From IMG/VR virus record IMGVR_UViG_2541047945_000007: a stretch of 7,817 nucleotides of DNA; one strand, 5' to 3'. This document shows positions 1 through 7,817 of this stretch, piece by piece. A program made the position numbers and the translations under genes. How positions within the stretch are numbered: the first letter of the stretch is position 1; the number at the start of each line of letters is the position of its first letter. The notes beneath the pieces were generated by a model. The model did no database searches and was not told the origin of the DNA. It worked only from the letters and a program-made list of their open reading frames with translations. This DNA is from a virus. Taxonomy: Duplodnaviria; Heunggongvirae; Uroviricota; Caudoviricetes.

Positions 1-180
1 GCCCCCGGTATCCCGCTCATGCTGGCGAACCCAGACACGCAGAGTCTCCGGCGTACAGCCAATCTTTGGAGCAATGGAACAAATTGTCGCCCATTGTGAG
101 TCATATTCGCCCTGACTTTCCAGAACCATACGGACTGCCCGTTGACGGACTTCAGGGGAAAAACGAGTATTTTTAGTCAT
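1..180 (-). CDS. IS3-family transposase OrfA, N-terminal 60 codons (gene start at 180, runs off the window)
   Basis: Open minus-strand frame from ATG 180..178 to the window edge; SD-like GAGG upstream on the minus strand (GAGGTAAACAGG then ATG); HTH-like N-terminal sequence typical of IS3 OrfA. Confidence 0.8.
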
Positions 181-234
181 CCTGTTTACCTCTTTCTCAG
201 GAAGTTTAGTCTCCAGGATTCCCGGGGCGGTTCA
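1..234 (-). mobile_element. Left end of an IS3-family insertion sequence (IS629/IS1203-like), partial; the element continues beyond the window start
   Basis: Minus-strand translation from the ATG at 180..178 gives [60 protein letters not shown], which I recognise from memory as IS3-family OrfA (IS629-type). The minus-strand sequence ending at 234 begins TGAACCGCCCCGGG, consistent with an IS3-family terminal inverted repeat (TG...CA ends). Only one end is visible, so no target-site duplication can be assessed. Confidence 0.75.
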
Positions 235-379
235 GTATGAAGATATTCAGCAGCCTGCGCAACAACAGACACAACAAGCAACATCTGGCGGTCAAACATT
301 TCGAGAAGGTATGACCGCGAAAAATCCTAAAACTGGTCAGAAAATTATTTACAGGAACGGACAATGGCAACCAATGTAG
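235..379 (+). pseudogene. 3' remnant (47 codons) of a virion gene truncated by the IS insertion; by synteny a P22 gene 20-like ejection protein
   Basis: Frame 2 is open from the first base after the IS end (236) to TAG at 377..379, giving YEDIQQPAQQQTQQATSGGQTFREGMTAKNPKTGQKIIYRNGQWQPM*. It has no start codon of its own and its stop overlaps the next gene start by 16 nt, as in tightly packed late operons. Identity of the gene is inference from position only. Confidence 0.45.
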
Positions 380-2487
380 GTTTACCAGAGGGATTTGTTC
401 TGGATGAACAGCCTGATAACTCACAGCTTCCTGATGGCTTTGTGCTTGATGCCCAACCAGAACAGCAGCAATCTCCTTTGGTTTCACCAGAGGAAAATTC
501 CAGACAGGAAAATGTTGTTAATAATGCTAACGGTTTCGACCGTTTTATGTATGGCGTTCTCAGTGGATTGATGGATGTTGGTAAAGGTGTTGGTCTATTT
601 CAGGATATGACACCAGAAGAGCAAGCCGCAATTCAGTCTCTACAGCAGAAGTTAGCGGCAAAACCATCAACCGTACAAGATGTTGGTGAGTTCGTTGGAC
701 AAGCAGCACCATTTGTTAGTGGTGGTGGGATTATTTCTCAGGTTCCGAAAGGGGCGGCAAGGCTGGCTGCCGCCGCAGGGCTTGGTGCTGGAGAAGGGGC
801 TATTGTAGCCAATGGAACAAATAGCGATGTTGCTTCTGGAGCTGCTATTGGCGCTGTGGCTGGCCCTGTAGCAGAGATTGTTGGTCCAGCTCTTGGGAAG
901 ATTGCAGGAAAAATTAAAAATAGTGCCGGAGATATTTATCGCTCATCCGTAGGGATGGGTAGTAAATCATCTAAAGCAACGTTAAAGAAAGCTGCTGGCG
1001 CAATGGACAATAAATTTATCGGCGGGCAACGAGCTATTCAAGATTTCGCCGATGAAGTTAATCCTGATTTTAACGCGATAAATGCTATTCGTGAGCTAGA
1101 ACTGGAAAATTATGCCACTCCAGGCATGATCTCTAATAATCCTGCTGTCAGGGCTCTTGATAATGCAGTGGCAAGTCTCCCTGGAACAGAGATTAGTGAG
1201 GCGCATAAGCGTTTTATTACTGAATTAGGAAGAAAAGCTGATGAAATGATAACTTCATTTGGGGGAAGCCTTGATAAGCAACTGGTTTCTGACAGGCTTG
1301 CAGATAATTTTGATAAAACCATTTCATCATTACAAAATCAGTCAGATAACATCTACAACAAAATTGCCGAAAAGGTTCCTGTAAGAGACCGGATTGAGGC
1401 AACTAATACATTGAATTTTTTAGAGGATTTTGCTGATGATATAGGTGGAATTGATGAATTATCTCCAATAATGAAGCGGACATTGAACCGACTTGATCCA
1501 AACACCTTGCCAACGTATGGGCGTTTAGATCTCGCTAGAAAGCAGGTTGGGCAAGCTATTGGCAAAGGCTCTGGCCCATTCAAGGATGAAGAAACAGGTG
1601 TTCTTAAAAAGTTATATGCGGCTATAACAGATGACCAACAGGCTGTCGCAGAAAAATATGGCGCAGGGGAGTTATGGACGCTTGGTAAGGAGTTGGTAAA
1701 AACACGAAAATCCATTGAAGATGATGCCGTAACCGTTTTGGGTAGAAAACTTCAGCAATCAGCAATTCCAAAAGTTGAAAGTGCCGTTGTTAATATGGCA
1801 AAAGGAAACGGTGGTGACTTTAGGCAATTAATGAAGTCAATTCCAAAGGATATGCGGCAGGAAGTTGCGCTCACCTCAATGAATAAAGCATTTACCAGCT
1901 ATGCTAAATCACCAGGTCAGCAATTAGGGGTTGATGGATTTGTAAAATGGTATAACGGAATGTCACGCAATGGGGCCAATATGAAGGCTCTCCGTGATGC
2001 TATTGGCACAGATGCATCAAAGCGCCTTGATACGATTTATCAAGCAGCTAAGGCTATGAATAGACTCAATACTGGTAAGCAGTATGCTAGTAGTCTTGTG
2101 GATCAGCAAGTTAATAACTTTCTGAAAGAAAAGGGTAGTCTCGCAAAAATTTATGGAATAGCCTCAAAAGCTGCTGCGGCGGAAGGTATTACAAGCTTAT
2201 CTGGTCTTCCTGGTGTAGGTGCAACAGGGGTGATAACGTCAGCATTGATGTCAGGGAAAACAAGCAGGATAAAGGCTGCTGATGCTCTACTGTCTTCTCC
2301 TGAGTTTAAATCAATGCTATTTCGCCTGCAAAACGCACCTGTAGACAGAGCAGAAGTGAGACGCGTAATAGAAAGGAAACTGATGCAATCTGGGGCATTT
2401 AAGAGATGGGAGAAAACCTTATCAACAGATGAAGCAAAAACCATTGCCCGCACGGGGATTATTACATGGCTCGCTAGTGACAGTTAG
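364..2487 (+). CDS. Internal virion / DNA ejection protein (707 aa); P22 gene 16-like by position
   Basis: 2124-nt ORF; SD AGGAA at 353..357, 6 nt before ATG 364. N-terminal acidic tandem peptide repeat (LPEGFVLDEQP / LPDGFVLDAQP), a long Gly/Ala-rich hydrophobic segment (about aa 107-184), then a long predicted alpha-helical region. It lies immediately upstream of the immI region, as gene 16 does in P22. Functional assignment is from synteny and composition, not recognised sequence identity. Confidence 0.8.
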   Translation: MATNVGLPEGFVLDEQPDNSQLPDGFVLDAQPEQQQSPLVSPEENSRQENVVNNANGFDRFMYGVLSGLMDVGKGVGLFQDMTPEEQAAIQSLQQKLAAKPSTVQDVGEFVGQAAPFVSGGGIISQVPKGAARLAAAAGLGAGEGAIVANGTNSDVASGAAIGAVAGPVAEIVGPALGKIAGKIKNSAGDIYRSSVGMGSKSSKATLKKAAGAMDNKFIGGQRAIQDFADEVNPDFNAINAIRELELENYATPGMISNNPAVRALDNAVASLPGTEISEAHKRFITELGRKADEMITSFGGSLDKQLVSDRLADNFDKTISSLQNQSDNIYNKIAEKVPVRDRIEATNTLNFLEDFADDIGGIDELSPIMKRTLNRLDPNTLPTYGRLDLARKQVGQAIGKGSGPFKDEETGVLKKLYAAITDDQQAVAEKYGAGELWTLGKELVKTRKSIEDDAVTVLGRKLQQSAIPKVESAVVNMAKGNGGDFRQLMKSIPKDMRQEVALTSMNKAFTSYAKSPGQQLGVDGFVKWYNGMSRNGANMKALRDAIGTDASKRLDTIYQAAKAMNRLNTGKQYASSLVDQQVNNFLKEKGSLAKIYGIASKAAAAEGITSLSGLPGVGATGVITSALMSGKTSRIKAADALLSSPEFKSMLFRLQNAPVDRAEVRRVIERKLMQSGAFKRWEKTLSTDEAKTIARTGIITWLASDS

Positions 2488-2774
2488 TCAACTTTGGTTA
2501 TTTTGCCTTCTTTTTCTTGATGAACTTTGCATCCATCATCTTTTGATAGCCAAACTAAAAACTTTAAAACCTTAAACACAAGTACGGCTACTGCAATGAA
2601 AGCACCAATTGCAATTATTGCAAGCGAAATTATTTGCATTGGTGCTTTTAATGCAGGGAAAATAGTGTAAATGATCGCGAAAACAGTAATTATGAGGAAC
2701 CATCGCTTCACACCAACCTCCTTAGTTTTGTGCAGGATACCAGATGGTTTGGAGTGAGATAAAGGTTTGTCCAC
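2484..2774 (-). CDS. Small hypothetical membrane protein (96 aa from a GTG start; possible shorter form from an internal ATG)
   Basis: Minus-strand ORF with two strongly hydrophobic stretches (WFLIITVFAIIYTIFPAL and IISLAIIAIGAFIAVAVLVFKVL). Co-oriented with, and 64 bp downstream of, the PIN gene. GTG start with no clear SD and a T-rich coding strand mean the ORF could partly be a composition artefact. Its stop overlaps the convergent 707-aa gene stop. Confidence 0.4.
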   Translation of the reverse strand: MDKPLSHSKPSGILHKTKEVGVKRWFLIITVFAIIYTIFPALKAPMQIISLAIIAIGAFIAVAVLVFKVLKFLVWLSKDDGCKVHQEKEGKITKVD

Positions 2775-2794
2775 TTTTGGCTATAGCTTTATGT

Positions 2795-2823
2795 ATCCGT
2801 GACGGATGTAATTATCACGGATG
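2795..2823. other. Inverted and direct repeat cluster between the PIN gene and the small membrane-protein ORF
   Basis: ATCCGTGACGGAT (2795..2807) is a palindrome; ATCCGTGA (2795..2802) is the inverse complement of TCACGGAT (2815..2822); ACGGATG occurs twice (2802..2808 and 2817..2823). No T-run follows on either strand, so it is not a clean intrinsic terminator. Confidence 0.4.
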
Positions 2824-2838
2824 CATAAAAATTATATT

Positions 2839-3387
2839 TTAGTGTAATCTCTGATCGTCTGAATCGTGTAAGAACTCCATGAGACTTTGAACCGGAATTG
2901 GTTCTATTGATGATAATGTGAACACAGGAATATTGAGACTTTTGCAACGCTCAAACACTCCCTTATCATGAGTCCATACCTCGTCAGCATTAATTGCTCT
3001 TGCAATTGCTATTATTTGTCTGTCAAACTTAATTTTGTTTGCTGTACCTTCTGTGCTAATTTTCCTTAATTCTTTTAATGTTGGTATCGATGCGCATTCA
3101 ATAGCAGCCAACTCATCAAATGATACAGTTTCGAAGCACGATAACGATTTGATAACATTCAGTTTTTCTTGTTGGTAATCTTTATGGATTCCAACTAAAA
3201 ACTCCGCCAATACAGGAGTTGGAACGATGATTGTCCCGTTCTTGTTATCTATTCGATCAACAAGAGCTTCTGCTCTTCTTTTGGCATCTGGAATCTCAGA
3301 ACCAAGTATAGGGTCAGATAATCTATAATCGTGTTCTATATCTGATAGTAGGTATACCAGAATATTGGTATCTAAAATTACTCGCAA
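2839..3387 (-). CDS. PIN-domain nuclease, VapC-like (182 aa)
   Basis: N-terminus MRVILDTNILVY is the canonical PIN start. The four conserved acidic positions are present in the expected motifs: D6 (ILDTN), E62 (PVLAEF), D122 (KFDRQIIAIA) and D141 (WTHDKGVFER, matching the VapC T-x-x-D...FER C-terminal motif). Start is TTG at 3387..3385 preceded by a good SD (GAGGAA, 7-nt spacer); there is no in-frame ATG. The start overlaps the upstream gene's stop by 10 nt, indicating translational coupling. Confidence 0.8.
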   Translation of the reverse strand: MRVILDTNILVYLLSDIEHDYRLSDPILGSEIPDAKRRAEALVDRIDNKNGTIIVPTPVLAEFLVGIHKDYQQEKLNVIKSLSCFETVSFDELAAIECASIPTLKELRKISTEGTANKIKFDRQIIAIARAINADEVWTHDKGVFERCKSLNIPVFTLSSIEPIPVQSLMEFLHDSDDQRLH

Positions 3388-4097
3388 TTTATCTTCCTCA
3401 GAGTCCTAAGGATTGAATCAACATCGCGTTCCTCGGACCACTGATCTCCAGGAACTTGCTTGATAGCATTAATAGCATCCTTGAGTGATGATTTTTTGAG
3501 CAATACAAATGAAGTTATTTTTAGTTTCTTTAGCTCCCATTTGTTGTTCTTTTTTTCCCAGCACCCATCTCCTTTAACCCTAATATATTTGAATAGATGG
3601 GACCCAAGAGCTGCCGCCAAATCAGGGGTTGCCTCGCACTTGAATGTTTCACCGTTGGCTCCCTCAATACGCACAGGTATTGAGTTGTCTTTTCCGCCAA
3701 CACTGTATAGCCTTCCTTGAACTTCTGACGTTTTTGTTATGAGTAAAGGGATTGGCTCCTTTTTTACTCGCGGGAATGCGATAATGGTTGAGTGGTTTCG
3801 TCCGAGTAGTTTCGCTGAAAAACCATCATGCTCCAGTAAATTAACAATTTTTTGATACGCGGGTGATTTCTCTTTGGCTGAGAGAGAGGCCCTTGCTATG
3901 ACAGCGTTATAACAAATATCATTATCGACCCATGCATTTAAGTCAGCCGATCCTTCACTTACACAGTCGAAGTGAACAGAATCTGCAGAACCGTATAGAT
4001 CTACGAGAGCAGACATATACTTGACCAACTTAGCCATTGACAGCTGGCCAGGGGTGGTTCCGTCAAGTTTTAATGTGAGTCCATTGCTTTTTTTCAT
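3378..4097 (-). CDS. Hypothetical protein (239 aa), upstream partner of the PIN nuclease; no recognisable domain
   Basis: 720-nt minus-strand ORF starting 49 bp downstream of the mnt stop; AT-rich like the PIN gene; ends ...LRKINCE* with its TAA inside the PIN start region. No Walker, HTH or other motif I can identify. The SD is weak (GTGATGACAA then ATG). Confidence 0.7.
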   Translation of the reverse strand: MKKSNGLTLKLDGTTPGQLSMAKLVKYMSALVDLYGSADSVHFDCVSEGSADLNAWVDNDICYNAVIARASLSAKEKSPAYQKIVNLLEHDGFSAKLLGRNHSTIIAFPRVKKEPIPLLITKTSEVQGRLYSVGGKDNSIPVRIEGANGETFKCEATPDLAAALGSHLFKYIRVKGDGCWEKKNNKWELKKLKITSFVLLKKSSLKDAINAIKQVPGDQWSEERDVDSILRTLRKINCE

Positions 4098-4423: not shown

Positions 4424-4452
4424 TTGACATGATAGAAGCACTCTACTATATT
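4424..4452 (+). promoter_or_regulatory. Pant-like sigma70 promoter (-35 TTGACA 4424..4429, 17-bp spacer, -10 TATATT 4447..4452)
   Basis: Consensus -35, 17-nt spacer and near-consensus -10 read directly from the sequence; location and arrangement match P22 Pant. Confidence 0.7.
4429..4449. promoter_or_regulatory. Arc operator (Oarc): ATGATAGAAGCACTCTACTAT
   Basis: The 21-bp sequence matches the P22 arc operator as I remember it from the Arc-operator structural literature, with TAGA/TCTA half-sites; it lies in the Pant spacer and overlaps the Pmnt -10. Confidence 0.7.
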
Positions 4453-4457
4453 CTCAA
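4429..4457 (-). promoter_or_regulatory. Pmnt-like divergent promoter (minus strand: -35 TTGAGA at 4457..4452, 17-bp spacer, -10 TATCAT at 4434..4429)
   Basis: Read on the reverse complement. Overlaps Pant back-to-back, as described for P22 immI. Confidence 0.55.
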
Positions 4458-4477
4458 TAGGTCCACCGTGGACCTAT
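4457..4477. promoter_or_regulatory. Mnt operator (Omnt): perfect 21-bp palindrome ATAGGTCCACCGTGGACCTAT centred on 4467
   Basis: Perfect dyad symmetry verified base by base; it lies just downstream of the Pant -10 (covering the expected transcription start), where Mnt represses ant in P22. Confidence 0.75.
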
Positions 4478-4491
4478 ATTGTGAGGTAAAT

Positions 4492-4650
4492 ATGAAAGGA
4501 ATGAGCAAAATGCCGCAGTTCAATTTGCGGTGGCCTAAAGAAGTATTGGATTTGGTGCGCAAGGTAGCTGAAGAGAACGGGCGATCTGTTAACTCTGAGA
4601 TTTATAAGCGAGTGATGGACAGCCTGAAGAGAGAGGGGATAACGGTATGA
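4492..4650 (+). CDS. arc: Arc repressor (ribbon-helix-helix), 52 aa
   Basis: [52 protein letters not shown] is near-identical to P22 Arc as I recall it. SD GAGG 7 nt upstream of ATG 4492. The longer ORF-track start at 4429 is rejected because it would cover the promoter and operators. Confidence 0.93.
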   Translation: MKGMSKMPQFNLRWPKEVLDLVRKVAEENGRSVNSEIYKRVMDSLKREGITV

Positions 4651-6011: not shown

Positions 6012-7817
6012 ATGACAGACATTATACCTAACATTATAGTTTCCATGCCTAATCAATTGTTCACAATGTCAAGAACATTTAAATCAGTATCGAATGGAAG
6101 CATTTATATCGGGAAGCCTGATACCGATCCGACTAATCCAGATAATCAAGTGGATGTTTATTTTGAGAATGAGAATGGAAAATATATTAAGGTTTCTCAA
6201 CCAATAAAAATAAGTCAAGCTGGACAACCTGTATTGAATGGTCAATTCGGTAAGTTTGCGACTATAAAAAATCACTCAATGGCGATTTTTGATGCGTATG
6301 GCTCTCAGCAGCACTATTTCCCAAATGTAATGAAATATGCTCCAGATCAGTTAAGGCAGGAATTAACAAATTTTTCTGGTGAAAATTCTCCTGGTTATGC
6401 TGACCCAAGTAATACGGTATGGGGAATTGATGCATTTTCTTCTAATGAATATGCGAAAAATAATGCTTTTTTCGGAGTTGGAGCAGGATCATCAATTATA
6501 GGTAACGAGTCAGATGAGGCTGTTGGTGCGGAAAATACTGGTATTGGTAGACGAGCCGGTGCAAGCCTTACAACAGGACAGCGCAATGTTCTACTTGGAC
6601 ATGAGGCTGGAGCACTGTTAACTACAGGTAGTTGTAATATTTTTATTTACGCTCAAAGTTCTTCTTATGCCAACTATAAAACCGGTAGTTATAATGTAGT
6701 GGTTGGTTATAACGCTGGCAAACTATTAACATCAGGAGAGAGAAATGTTTCAGTTGGTACGGATGCTGGGTCACGAACAACAACAGGAAGAGATAACGTT
6801 GCTGTCGGTCAAGCAGCAATGCAAAATAACTCAACTGGTGGTGGTAATACCTATATAGGAGCATTCTCTGGTGCTGAGACGGGAACTGGCGGTAATAATC
6901 TTGCTGCAGGTCGCTCTGCCTTATTTAGAAATGTGGATGGTTCTGGAAACGTTGCACTAGGACGTGAGGCTTCTCTTGGTTTGTCTTCATATGGGGAATC
7001 TCCCAATAATATTGTTGCTATAGGGTATCAAGCTGCATGGTCACAGAATGGATTAAATGGTGTTGTTTTTTGTGGGATGCAAGCAGGATATAAAGCAACA
7101 AAAATGAATGATTCAGTTCTTATTGGTAGGGCTTCCGGCTTTAATTTAACAACAGGAAGTGATAATGTTTTTGTTGGTGCAGCGTCAGGAGATAGTGAGA
7201 CTACTGGAACCCAATTAGTATATCTTGGACATCAAGCTGGTAGGTTTTTGATTGATGGGACACCTGCAAAAGAGAAATTAAATTGTGTAGCTTTAGGCTG
7301 CCGTGCCAGAGTTGGTGGAGATCATGAGATTCAGTTAGGAAATTCTTCTCAGACAGTTTATGTATATGGTACGGTGCAAACTCGGTCTGATGAGCGTGAT
7401 AAAGCAGATAAACGAATAATAGACGGAGAACTTGCTGTATCATTCGTCCGTGGAATAATCCCATATTTTTATAAGTGGGATTTTCGTGATGATTATATAG
7501 AAGAATACAATGTAAAAATTGGTGATGATTCTAATGGCAATCCGATTTTTGAAACTAGAATTCATCAACATGAAAAAGATGGCAGTAGAAAAAGGAAAAG
7601 AGAACATGCCGGGTATCTTGCACAGCAAGTTAAAGAATTACTTGATCGACTTGGAATTGACTGTGGTATATATCAAGATCATCTAGTAAACAATGGATGC
7701 GATGTAAAAACAATTGCCTACGAACAGGTTATACCGTTTGTTACAAAGGCTATAGATGTTGCATTTTCAAGGATAGAGGGGTTAGAGCAAAGATTGAACA
7801 AACTCGAAAACCTATAA
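6012..7817 (+). CDS. Tailspike / tail fibre protein (601 aa): P22-type N-terminal head-binding domain, Gly-rich repeat shaft, C-terminal intramolecular chaperone domain
   Basis: The first ~115 aa (MTDIIPNIIVSMPNQLFTMSRTFKSVSNGSIYIGKPDTDPTNPDNQ...HSMAIFDAYGSQQHYFPNVMKYAPDQ) align closely with the P22 gp9 head-binding domain as I recall it. GGAG at 6000..6003 precedes ATG 6012. The C-terminus contains SDERDK (S459 to K464) followed by about 140 aa including HAGYLAQQVKELL, typical of the S74-type self-cleaving chaperone of phage fibres. Complete ORF with TAA at 7815..7817. Confidence 0.93.
   Translation: MTDIIPNIIVSMPNQLFTMSRTFKSVSNGSIYIGKPDTDPTNPDNQVDVYFENENGKYIKVSQPIKISQAGQPVLNGQFGKFATIKNHSMAIFDAYGSQQHYFPNVMKYAPDQLRQELTNFSGENSPGYADPSNTVWGIDAFSSNEYAKNNAFFGVGAGSSIIGNESDEAVGAENTGIGRRAGASLTTGQRNVLLGHEAGALLTTGSCNIFIYAQSSSYANYKTGSYNVVVGYNAGKLLTSGERNVSVGTDAGSRTTTGRDNVAVGQAAMQNNSTGGGNTYIGAFSGAETGTGGNNLAAGRSALFRNVDGSGNVALGREASLGLSSYGESPNNIVAIGYQAAWSQNGLNGVVFCGMQAGYKATKMNDSVLIGRASGFNLTTGSDNVFVGAASGDSETTGTQLVYLGHQAGRFLIDGTPAKEKLNCVALGCRARVGGDHEIQLGNSSQTVYVYGTVQTRSDERDKADKRIIDGELAVSFVRGIIPYFYKWDFRDDYIEEYNVKIGDDSNGNPIFETRIHQHEKDGSRKRKREHAGYLAQQVKELLDRLGIDCGIYQDHLVNNGCDVKTIAYEQVIPFVTKAIDVAFSRIEGLEQRLNKLENL
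6459..7346 (+). repeat. Degenerate periodic coding repeat in the tailspike (about 14 units of 17-18 aa, consensus roughly G-x-x-AG-x-x-L-TTG-x-x-NV-x-x-G)
   Basis: Units read from the translation include RRAGASLTTGQRNVLLG, HEAGALLTTGSCNIFIY, YNAGKLLTSGERNVSVG, TDAGSRTTTGRDNVAVG, RASGFNLTTGSDNVFVG and AASGDSETTGTQLVYLG. The periodicity is at the protein level; the DNA units are diverged and not identical tandem repeats. Confidence 0.6.

What the first reader, a model, noticed from the sequence alone, without database searches (positions are those of the whole stretch)
7386..7817. Predicted autoproteolytic site (SDERDK) and C-terminal intramolecular chaperone in the tailspike
The Ser-x4-Lys spacing in SDERDK (S459, K464) matches the Ser-Lys catalytic dyad of S74-type fibre chaperone domains, which cleave after the serine and release a roughly 140-aa C-terminal fragment once the trimer has folded. 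The predicted mature protein would end at S459.
Basis: partly seen in the sequence, partly recalled or inferred. Interest (0 to 1): 0.45.

Follow-up and report, generated by a model that had tools for sequence, protein, structure and literature searches.

The report
Self-cleaving chaperone domain of a prophage tailspike

The parts
6012..7817 (+). Tailspike ORF, 601 aa plus TAA stop
   Evidence: It is 100% identical to the PGAP 'phage tailspike protein' WP_021572783 in E. coli LC-1302-2020. It lies directly downstream of mnt/arc/ant, as in P22.
6012..6350 (+). P22-type head-binding domain (aa 1-113)
   Evidence: Pfam PF09008, E=1.5e-50. phmmer gives E=2.6e-46 against the N-terminus of Sf6 gp14. 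Foldseek hits to P22 and Sf6 head-binding domains have E about 1e-9 to 1e-10.
6462..7385 (+). Mature body (aa ~151-458) built of ~17-residue Gly-rich repeats N-[VIL]-x-[VIL]-G-x-x-A-G-x-x-x-T-T-G-x-x
   Evidence: Repeat starts at 175, 192, 228, 245, 262, 279, 296 and 313 follow a 17-residue period (the 192-to-228 step is 36), and further starts lie at 151 and 385. The AF2 model has short strands every 17 residues, with pLDDT 50-70. No Pfam or NCBIfam family matches.
7311..7385 (+). Conserved pre-cleavage segment (aa 434-458, VGGDHEIQLGNSSQTVYVYGTVQTR) that would stay on the mature spike
   Evidence: Q441, G443, Y450, Q456 and R458 are invariant in 53/53 homologues whose bodies differ.
7383..7403 (+). 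R458-S459-D460-E461-R462-D463-K464: the autoproteolytic site. S459 (7386-7388) is the nucleophile and K464 (7401-7403) the general base.
   Evidence: R, S, D, R, D and K are invariant in 53/53, and RSDxRDK is present in 177/178. Pfam S74 profile position 1 falls on S459. The site aligns to SDRRIK of 6f45.
7386..7814 (+). Intramolecular chaperone / peptidase S74 domain (aa 459-601), the predicted released fragment
7497..7568 (+). Long beta-hairpin (aa 496-519), probable 'tentacle'. It lies within the roughly 32 extra residues that stretch the 58-position Pfam profile over 90 residues.
   Evidence: AF2 strands 496-505 and 511-519. Pfam positions 1-57 span aa 459-548. This stretch varies in length among homologues.
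7605..7631 (+). H532-A-G-Y-L-A-Q-Q-V540, equivalent of the conserved 'HxGxIAQ' trimerisation motif
   Evidence: H532 and A537 are invariant and Q538 is kept in 52 of 53. hhalign aligns this stretch to endoNF HFGVIAQQI. The GVIAQ motif is described in PMC3742440.
7719..7811 (+). Long C-terminal helix (aa 570-600) with 3-4 spaced hydrophobics (I581, F585, I588, L591, L595, L598); predicted trimeric coiled coil
   Evidence: AF2 helix 570-599/600 with pLDDT >90. The helix aligns with the C-terminal helices of 6f45 and MyRF.

Best explanation
Residues 459-601 of this P22-like prophage tailspike are a C-terminal intramolecular chaperone domain of the peptidase S74 family (also called CIMCD or ICA). 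Three nascent chains are brought into register by the C-terminal coiled coil and the mixed alpha/beta part of this domain. That nucleates folding of the repeat-built trimeric body. This step is inferred from the K1F and T5 paradigms. Once the last turns of the body (aa ~434-458) are correctly formed, K464 deprotonates the S459 hydroxyl. The serine then attacks the adjacent peptide bond and the domain is released. This too is inferred, from conserved residues and fold. The products would be a mature spike of about 48 kDa per chain, ending at R458 or S459, and a 16.6-kDa fragment that is not part of the virion. Domain identity is shown computationally. Cleavage, chaperone dependence and the exact scissile bond are inferred.
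For: PF13884 starts at S459 and scores above the gathering threshold (24.1 bits, E=4.4e-5; 28.9 bits, E=1.5e-6 on aa 430-601). Of 26 homologous C-termini, 25 hit the same family, with best E=1.6e-13.

R458, S459, D460, R462, D463 and K464 are invariant in 53/53 homologues. RSDxRDK is present in 177/178, and the one exception keeps S and K.

An exhaustive search finds 1908 cluster representatives with E<=1e-3. The match ends a median of 2 residues from the C-terminus, in proteins of 64-1375 aa. The predicted released fragments are 117-163 aa.

A family profile searched against the PDB hits phage S16 gp37 (6f45, E=1.2e-3), with S459-D-x-R-x-K aligned to SDRRIK, and more weakly the MyRF ICA domain.

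The HxGxIAQ motif aligns to endoNF.

The dyad and its 5-residue spacing are experimentally essential in endoNF, T5, MyRF and MrfA (PMC8326128; PMC4690869; PMC3742440; PMC3828593).

The gene sits in a complete P22-like virion module in E. coli NMBU_W05E18.
Against: There is no experimental evidence for this protein. The Pfam score on the full-length protein is only 2 bits above threshold, and the precomputed Pfam annotation of its cluster lists only PF09008. Direct sequence comparison with solved members is weak: phmmer against the PDB gives E=0.68, and hhalign against the endoNF CTD gives probability 19%. The Arg 'folding sensor' found 14 residues upstream of the serine in endoNF (R897) and T5 (R1250) has no counterpart here. 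Position 445 is Ser, and no basic residue is conserved in 434-457. So the trigger or oxyanion arrangement may differ. The model is a monomer, so the geometry of the active site in the trimer was not examined. The copy in this window lies in an IS-truncated prophage remnant and may never be expressed as a virion protein there.
Confidence: 0.87

Rival explanations
1. The S74-like domain is present but is not cleaved in this subfamily. It would stay on the spike as its distal tip, because the upstream Arg sensor of endoNF and T5 is missing.
For: No Arg lies at -14 and no basic residue is conserved in aa 434-457. The residue at -1 is an invariant Arg instead of the Thr of endoNF and T5.
Against: S459 and K464 are invariant across 178 homologues at 40-80% identity. 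That is hard to explain without catalysis. MyRF also lacks the stalk Arg and still self-cleaves (PMC8326128). In T5 the uncleaved chaperone masks the receptor-binding tip (PMC4690869).
Confidence: 0.07
2. The domain and dyad are as proposed, but the scissile bond is R458|S459 (N-terminal side of the serine) and not S459|D460. The mature spike would then end at R458 and the released fragment would be 143 aa, starting with SDERDK.
For: The T5 structure paper states cleavage of the Thr1263-Ser1264 bond. It also reports no density for the serine in mature T5 and K1F proteins. PMC3828593 states that endoNF is cleaved immediately N-terminal of S911. Attack of a serine hydroxyl on the preceding carbonyl is the chemically usual route (established knowledge of N-to-O acyl shifts).
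Against: [quoted passage not shown] Mass spectrometry of MrfA found a fragment starting one residue after the serine. As I recall it, not checked here, the 2007 description of the family says the CTD is cleaved 'after' the conserved serine.
Confidence: 0.55
3. SDERDK is a chance Ser-x4-Lys match in an unrelated C-terminal domain.
For: S-x4-K occurs 4 times in the protein, with about 2 expected by chance.
Confidence: 0.01

Closest known systems
C-terminal intramolecular chaperone domain of coliphage K1F endosialidase endoNF (PDB 3GW6; MEROPS S74, Pfam PF13884)
   Different: Sequence identity is only about 12%. The site is TSNGERK in endoNF and RSDERDK here. The endoNF stalk Arg897 sensor has no counterpart. 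The upstream body is a sialidase beta-propeller plus triple beta-helix in endoNF, and a 17-residue-repeat body here.
[quoted passage not shown]
   Different: T5 has Thr at -1 and Arg1250 at -14. pb1 belongs to a siphovirus side fibre with a bullet-shaped mannose-binding tip.
MyRF/MrfA ICA domain of eukaryotic membrane-bound transcription factors (PDB 7DC3)
   Different: MyRF is a eukaryotic ER-membrane protein. Its domain is internal and stays on the membrane after cleavage, and its function is release of a transcription factor.
CUS-3-type P22-like prophage tailspikes of E. coli (head-binding domain + endosialidase + S74 domain)
   Same: The overall architecture is the same: P22 head-binding N-terminus followed by a receptor module and a C-terminal S74 domain, in an E. 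coli P22-like prophage. Examples are P0101 and P0118, carrying PF09008 and endosialidase domains and named 'peptidase S74' by a source, and P0114, carrying PF09008 and PF13884.
   Different: The central module is unrelated: endosialidase there, a Gly-rich 17-residue-repeat body here. The S74 domains belong to different subfamilies.

Membership tests
Peptidase S74 / C-terminal intramolecular chaperone domain (Pfam PF13884; CIMCD, ICA) | Significant match to the family profile above the curated threshold | tested here: met
   24.1 bits (E=4.4e-5) on the full protein and 28.9 bits (E=1.5e-6) on aa 430-601, against a gathering score of 22. 25 of 26 homologous C-termini also match.
Peptidase S74 / C-terminal intramolecular chaperone domain | Catalytic Ser and Lys five positions apart at the N-terminal edge of the domain, aligned with the catalytic residues of characterised members | tested here: met
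   S459 falls on profile position 1. S459-x4-K464 aligns with SDRRIK of 6f45 and with the MyRF site. The spacing equals S911/K916 read from the K1F sequence. Both residues are kept in 178/178 homologues.
Peptidase S74 / C-terminal intramolecular chaperone domain | Characteristic fold: alpha/beta part with a beta-hairpin, followed by a long C-terminal helix | tested here: met
Peptidase S74 / C-terminal intramolecular chaperone domain | Located at the extreme C-terminus of a phage fibre or spike protein | tested here: met
   The domain ends at the stop codon of a protein with a P22 head-binding domain. In homologues the match ends a median of 2 residues from the C-terminus.
Peptidase S74 / C-terminal intramolecular chaperone domain | Conserved HxGxIAQ motif implicated in trimerisation | tested here: met
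   H532-AGYLAQQV. H532 and A537 are invariant and Q538 is kept in 52 of 53. It aligns with endoNF HFGVIAQQI. The motif's role is taken from PMC3742440.
Peptidase S74 / C-terminal intramolecular chaperone domain | Stalk arginine about 14 residues upstream of the serine acting as folding sensor or oxyanion stabiliser (endoNF R897, T5 R1250) | tested here: not met
   Position -14 is S445, and no basic residue is conserved in 434-457. R458 at -1 and R462 are invariant instead. This feature is not universal: MyRF lacks it and still cleaves.
Peptidase S74 / C-terminal intramolecular chaperone domain | Autoproteolytic release of the domain, abolished by Ser-to-Ala or Lys-to-Ala substitution | not testable with these tools
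   Needs protein expression. The predicted products are 48.0 kDa and 16.6 kDa.
Peptidase S74 / C-terminal intramolecular chaperone domain | The domain is required in cis for trimer folding of the upstream part | not testable with these tools
   Needs truncation constructs and trimer assays.
P22-like (Lederbergvirus-type) tailspike | N-terminal head-binding domain and a gene position downstream of mnt-arc-ant | tested here: met
   PF09008, E=1.5e-50. Arc, Mnt and the P22 antirepressor domains lie upstream. A complete P22-like module is present in NZ_CP042878.
P22-like (Lederbergvirus-type) tailspike | Right-handed parallel beta-helix glycanase body | tested here: inconclusive
   No beta-helix or pectate-lyase Pfam hit. 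The body is a 17-residue repeat with low AF2 confidence. Foldseek matches to the P22 and Sf6 spikes come from the head-binding domain only, with whole-chain TM about 0.15.

The most novel reading that the evidence does not exclude
The large 'RSDxRDK' subfamily, at least 178 sequenced members here and up to 1908 cluster representatives, may couple cleavage to folding in a different way from endoNF and T5. It has an invariant Arg at P1 and invariant R462/D463, and it lacks the stalk arginine sensor. The oxyanion stabiliser or trigger would then be supplied from within the chaperone domain or by R458 itself. This subfamily is attached to 17-residue-repeat bodies, not to classical triple beta-helices.
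Probability: 0.25. Interest if true: 0.3.

Novelty: new member of a known kind. Interest (0 to 1): 0.15.

Why it matters
The practical value is in annotation and engineering. The mature virion protein is about 48 kDa, not 64.6 kDa. Any recombinant expression, proteomics or structural work on this tailspike must keep the C-terminal domain for folding and expect it to be absent afterwards. The result also shows that Pfam only just detects this subfamily. The stored annotation of the protein's cluster lacks the S74 domain, so similar domains are probably under-annotated in prophage tailspikes. It does not open a new biological question.

Tried and rejected
- A megablast of the gene against 50,697 phage records found nothing. 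tblastn of the C-terminus found only distant relatives at <=53% identity, in Aeromonas, Bacillus SPO1-like, Prochlorococcus and Xanthomonas phages.
- The word-indexed homologue search with the C-terminal fragment returned only one hit. The full-length query and the exhaustive representative search were needed.
- phmmer of the single C-terminal sequence against the PDB was not significant. Only the family profile reached 6f45.
- hhalign of the profile against the endoNF CTD aligned only the HxGxIAQ region, with low probability.
- NCBIfam gave no family.
- The full-length AF2 model has a low-confidence body, and its fold search identified only the two terminal domains. The nature of the body remains open.
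- The model coordinates are not exposed, so the S459-K464 geometry could not be measured.
- PMC2666599 (endoNF processing paper) is not held. The 'cleaved after the serine' wording therefore rests on my memory only.
- The chance-motif explanation was considered and rejected.
- PADLOC found nothing for the neighbouring PIN operon.

Full report
**What is in the sequence**

The window carries the right arm of a P22-like E. coli prophage. From left to right it holds:
- a gp16-like DNA-transfer gene at 364..2487, a full-length match to phrog_6704;
- a three-gene minus-strand insert that includes a PIN-domain protein;
- mnt-like and arc-like repressor genes and a P22-type antirepressor gene;
- the ORF 6012..7817 (601 aa), which ends at the last base of the window with TAA.

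Seven complete E. coli genomes carry this gene at >=99.6% identity, annotated as 'phage tailspike protein'. Residues 1-113 are a P22 head-binding domain (Pfam E=1.5e-50; E=2.6e-46 against Sf6 gp14).

TCT at 7386-7388 is S459, AAA at 7401-7403 is K464, and the hexapeptide is SDERDK. The fragment after S459 is 142 aa and 16.6 kDa. The part up to S459 is 48.0 kDa.

**Is it more than chance?**

The spacing alone is not. S-x4-K occurs four times in this protein, and about two are expected from composition. The context is what matters.

- Pfam's Peptidase_S74 model ('chaperone of endosialidase') aligns its position 1 to S459. It scores 24.1 bits on the whole protein and 28.9 bits on aa 430-601, and the curated cut-off is 22.
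- The 58-position profile is stretched over 90 residues. This subfamily carries about 32 extra residues in that span, which includes a beta-hairpin at aa 496-519. That explains the marginal score, and why the stored annotation of the protein's own cluster lists only the head-binding domain.
- In 53 homologous C-termini taken from proteins with different N-termini and bodies, R458, S459, D460, R462, D463 and K464 are all invariant.
- After adding the best 150 representatives of an exhaustive search, RSDxRDK is intact in 177 of 178. The exception, SDANDK, still has the Ser and the Lys.
- That search found 1908 cluster representatives at E<=1e-3. Among the homologues I could examine, the match ends a median of 2 residues before the C-terminus, in proteins of 64 to 1375 aa. 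The predicted released fragments are 117-163 aa.

**Independent evidence for the domain**

- A profile of 26 C-termini searched against all PDB sequences hits the phage S16 long-tail-fibre protein gp37 (6f45, E=1.2e-3). The alignment places 'sDeRDkaDi' over SDRRIKKDI. The MyRF ICA domain is hit more weakly, over its ADLRAK site.
- An AlphaFold2 model of aa 430-601 has mean pLDDT 80.7. It shows a short helix, a long beta-hairpin, a second helix starting at the HAGYLAQQV motif, and a 30-residue C-terminal helix.
- Foldseek against the PDB returns only the MyRF ICA domain (E=3e-4) and the K1F endoNF intramolecular chaperone (E=5e-3) before falling to noise.
- hhalign aligns the invariant H-x-G-x-[IL]-A-Q-x-V motif with HFGVIAQQI of endoNF. 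PMC3742440 describes this motif as the region needed for trimerisation.

**Mechanism**

In endoNF, T5 pb1, MyRF and Dictyostelium MrfA, the Ser and the Lys five residues downstream form a catalytic dyad. Mutation of either residue abolishes self-cleavage. Cleavage happens only in the folded trimer (PMC8326128; PMC4690869; PMC3742443; PMC3742440; PMC3828593).

By homology I infer the following sequence of events:
1. The C-terminal helices of three chains form a coiled coil. Hydrophobic residues at I581, F585, I588, L591, L595 and L598 show the 3-4 spacing.
2. The domain templates folding of the repeat-built body.
3. K464 activates S459 and the domain is released.

Domain identity is supported by computation. 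Cleavage and chaperone function are inferences.

**A correction of detail**

- For a cut N-terminal to the serine: the T5 structure paper speaks of cleavage of the Thr1263-Ser1264 bonds. It notes that the serine is absent from mature T5 and K1F proteins. PMC3828593 says endoNF is cleaved immediately N-terminal to S911.
- For a cut after the serine: the phi29 structure and the MrfA mass spectrometry point the other way.

The mature C-terminus is therefore R458 or S459. I lean slightly to R458.

**How this subfamily differs from the paradigms**

EndoNF (…SNRFTTAYLGSNPIVT|SNGERK, read from the K1F genome) and T5 have Thr at -1. They also have a stalk Arg at -14 (R897, R1250) that acts as a folding sensor. 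Here -14 is Ser. No basic residue is conserved in aa 434-457. The -1 residue is an invariant Arg. MyRF likewise lacks a required stalk Arg and still cleaves, so this does not argue against membership. The trigger may nevertheless be arranged differently.

**Context and caveats**

- Window 1-234 is the end of an IS3-family element.
- In E. coli LC-1302-2020 the tailspike region is a prophage remnant between appA and torT, flanked by IS3 and IS2. This copy may not make virions.
- The same gene (99.9%) sits at the end of a complete P22-like structural module in strain NMBU_W05E18. The protein is therefore a genuine virion component.
- The architecture of head-binding domain plus receptor module plus S74 domain already exists in other E. 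coli P22-like prophages, including CUS-3-type endosialidase spikes.
- Intramolecular chaperone domains are now routinely recognised in phage receptor-binding proteins.

**Verdict**

This is a new, uncharacterised member of a well-known domain family, so interest is low.

Noticed in passing
window 1-234: This is the terminal part of an IS3-family insertion sequence. It is 100% identical to the IS3 end next to the prophage remnant in NZ_CP091756 and has thousands of copies across E. coli genomes. The prophage is cut off upstream of the gp16-like gene. The reference genome lacks window 235-667, so the window comes from a slightly different strain or junction.
   Followed up: partly
window 2484-4097 (- strand): This is a three-gene minus-strand cassette in the slot between the gp16-like gene and mnt. 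It holds a 96-aa hydrophobic protein (2484..2774) and a PIN-domain protein (2839..3387, Pfam E=4e-10). The PIN gene overlaps by 10 nt a 239-aa protein of unknown function (3378..4097, phrog_19868). It could be a toxin-antitoxin or exclusion module. There is no PADLOC match.
   Followed up: partly
window 6462-7385: The mature body of the tailspike consists of ~17-residue Gly-rich repeats (N-[VIL]-x-[VIL]-G-x-x-A-G-x-x-x-T-T-G-x-x). It has no Pfam or NCBIfam family and no parallel beta-helix glycanase signature. One homologue is named 'trimeric autotransporter adhesin' by JGI. The AF2 monomer confidence is low. It may be a fibre-like, non-enzymatic receptor binder, which is unusual for a P22-like spike.
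   Followed up: partly
L003 21907-22506 (downstream of the tailspike in NZ_CP042878); L001 10907-11311: In the intact prophage the tailspike is followed by an acyltransferase gene, a likely O-antigen or capsule-modifying lysogenic-conversion gene. In the remnant (NZ_CP091756) the corresponding ORF is shorter and abuts an IS2 element.
   Followed up: no
window 7383-7403 and homologues: The subfamily site is RSDxRDK, with invariant Arg at -1 and invariant R462 and D463. The -14 arginine sensor of endoNF and T5 is absent.
   Followed up: partly
window 4429-4650: the ORF listing gives a 73-aa Arc-like ORF, but the Arc domain covers only residues 25-70. PGAP annotates a 52-aa protein that starts at an internal ATG (window ~4492). 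The long ORF start is probably not the real one.
   Followed up: no
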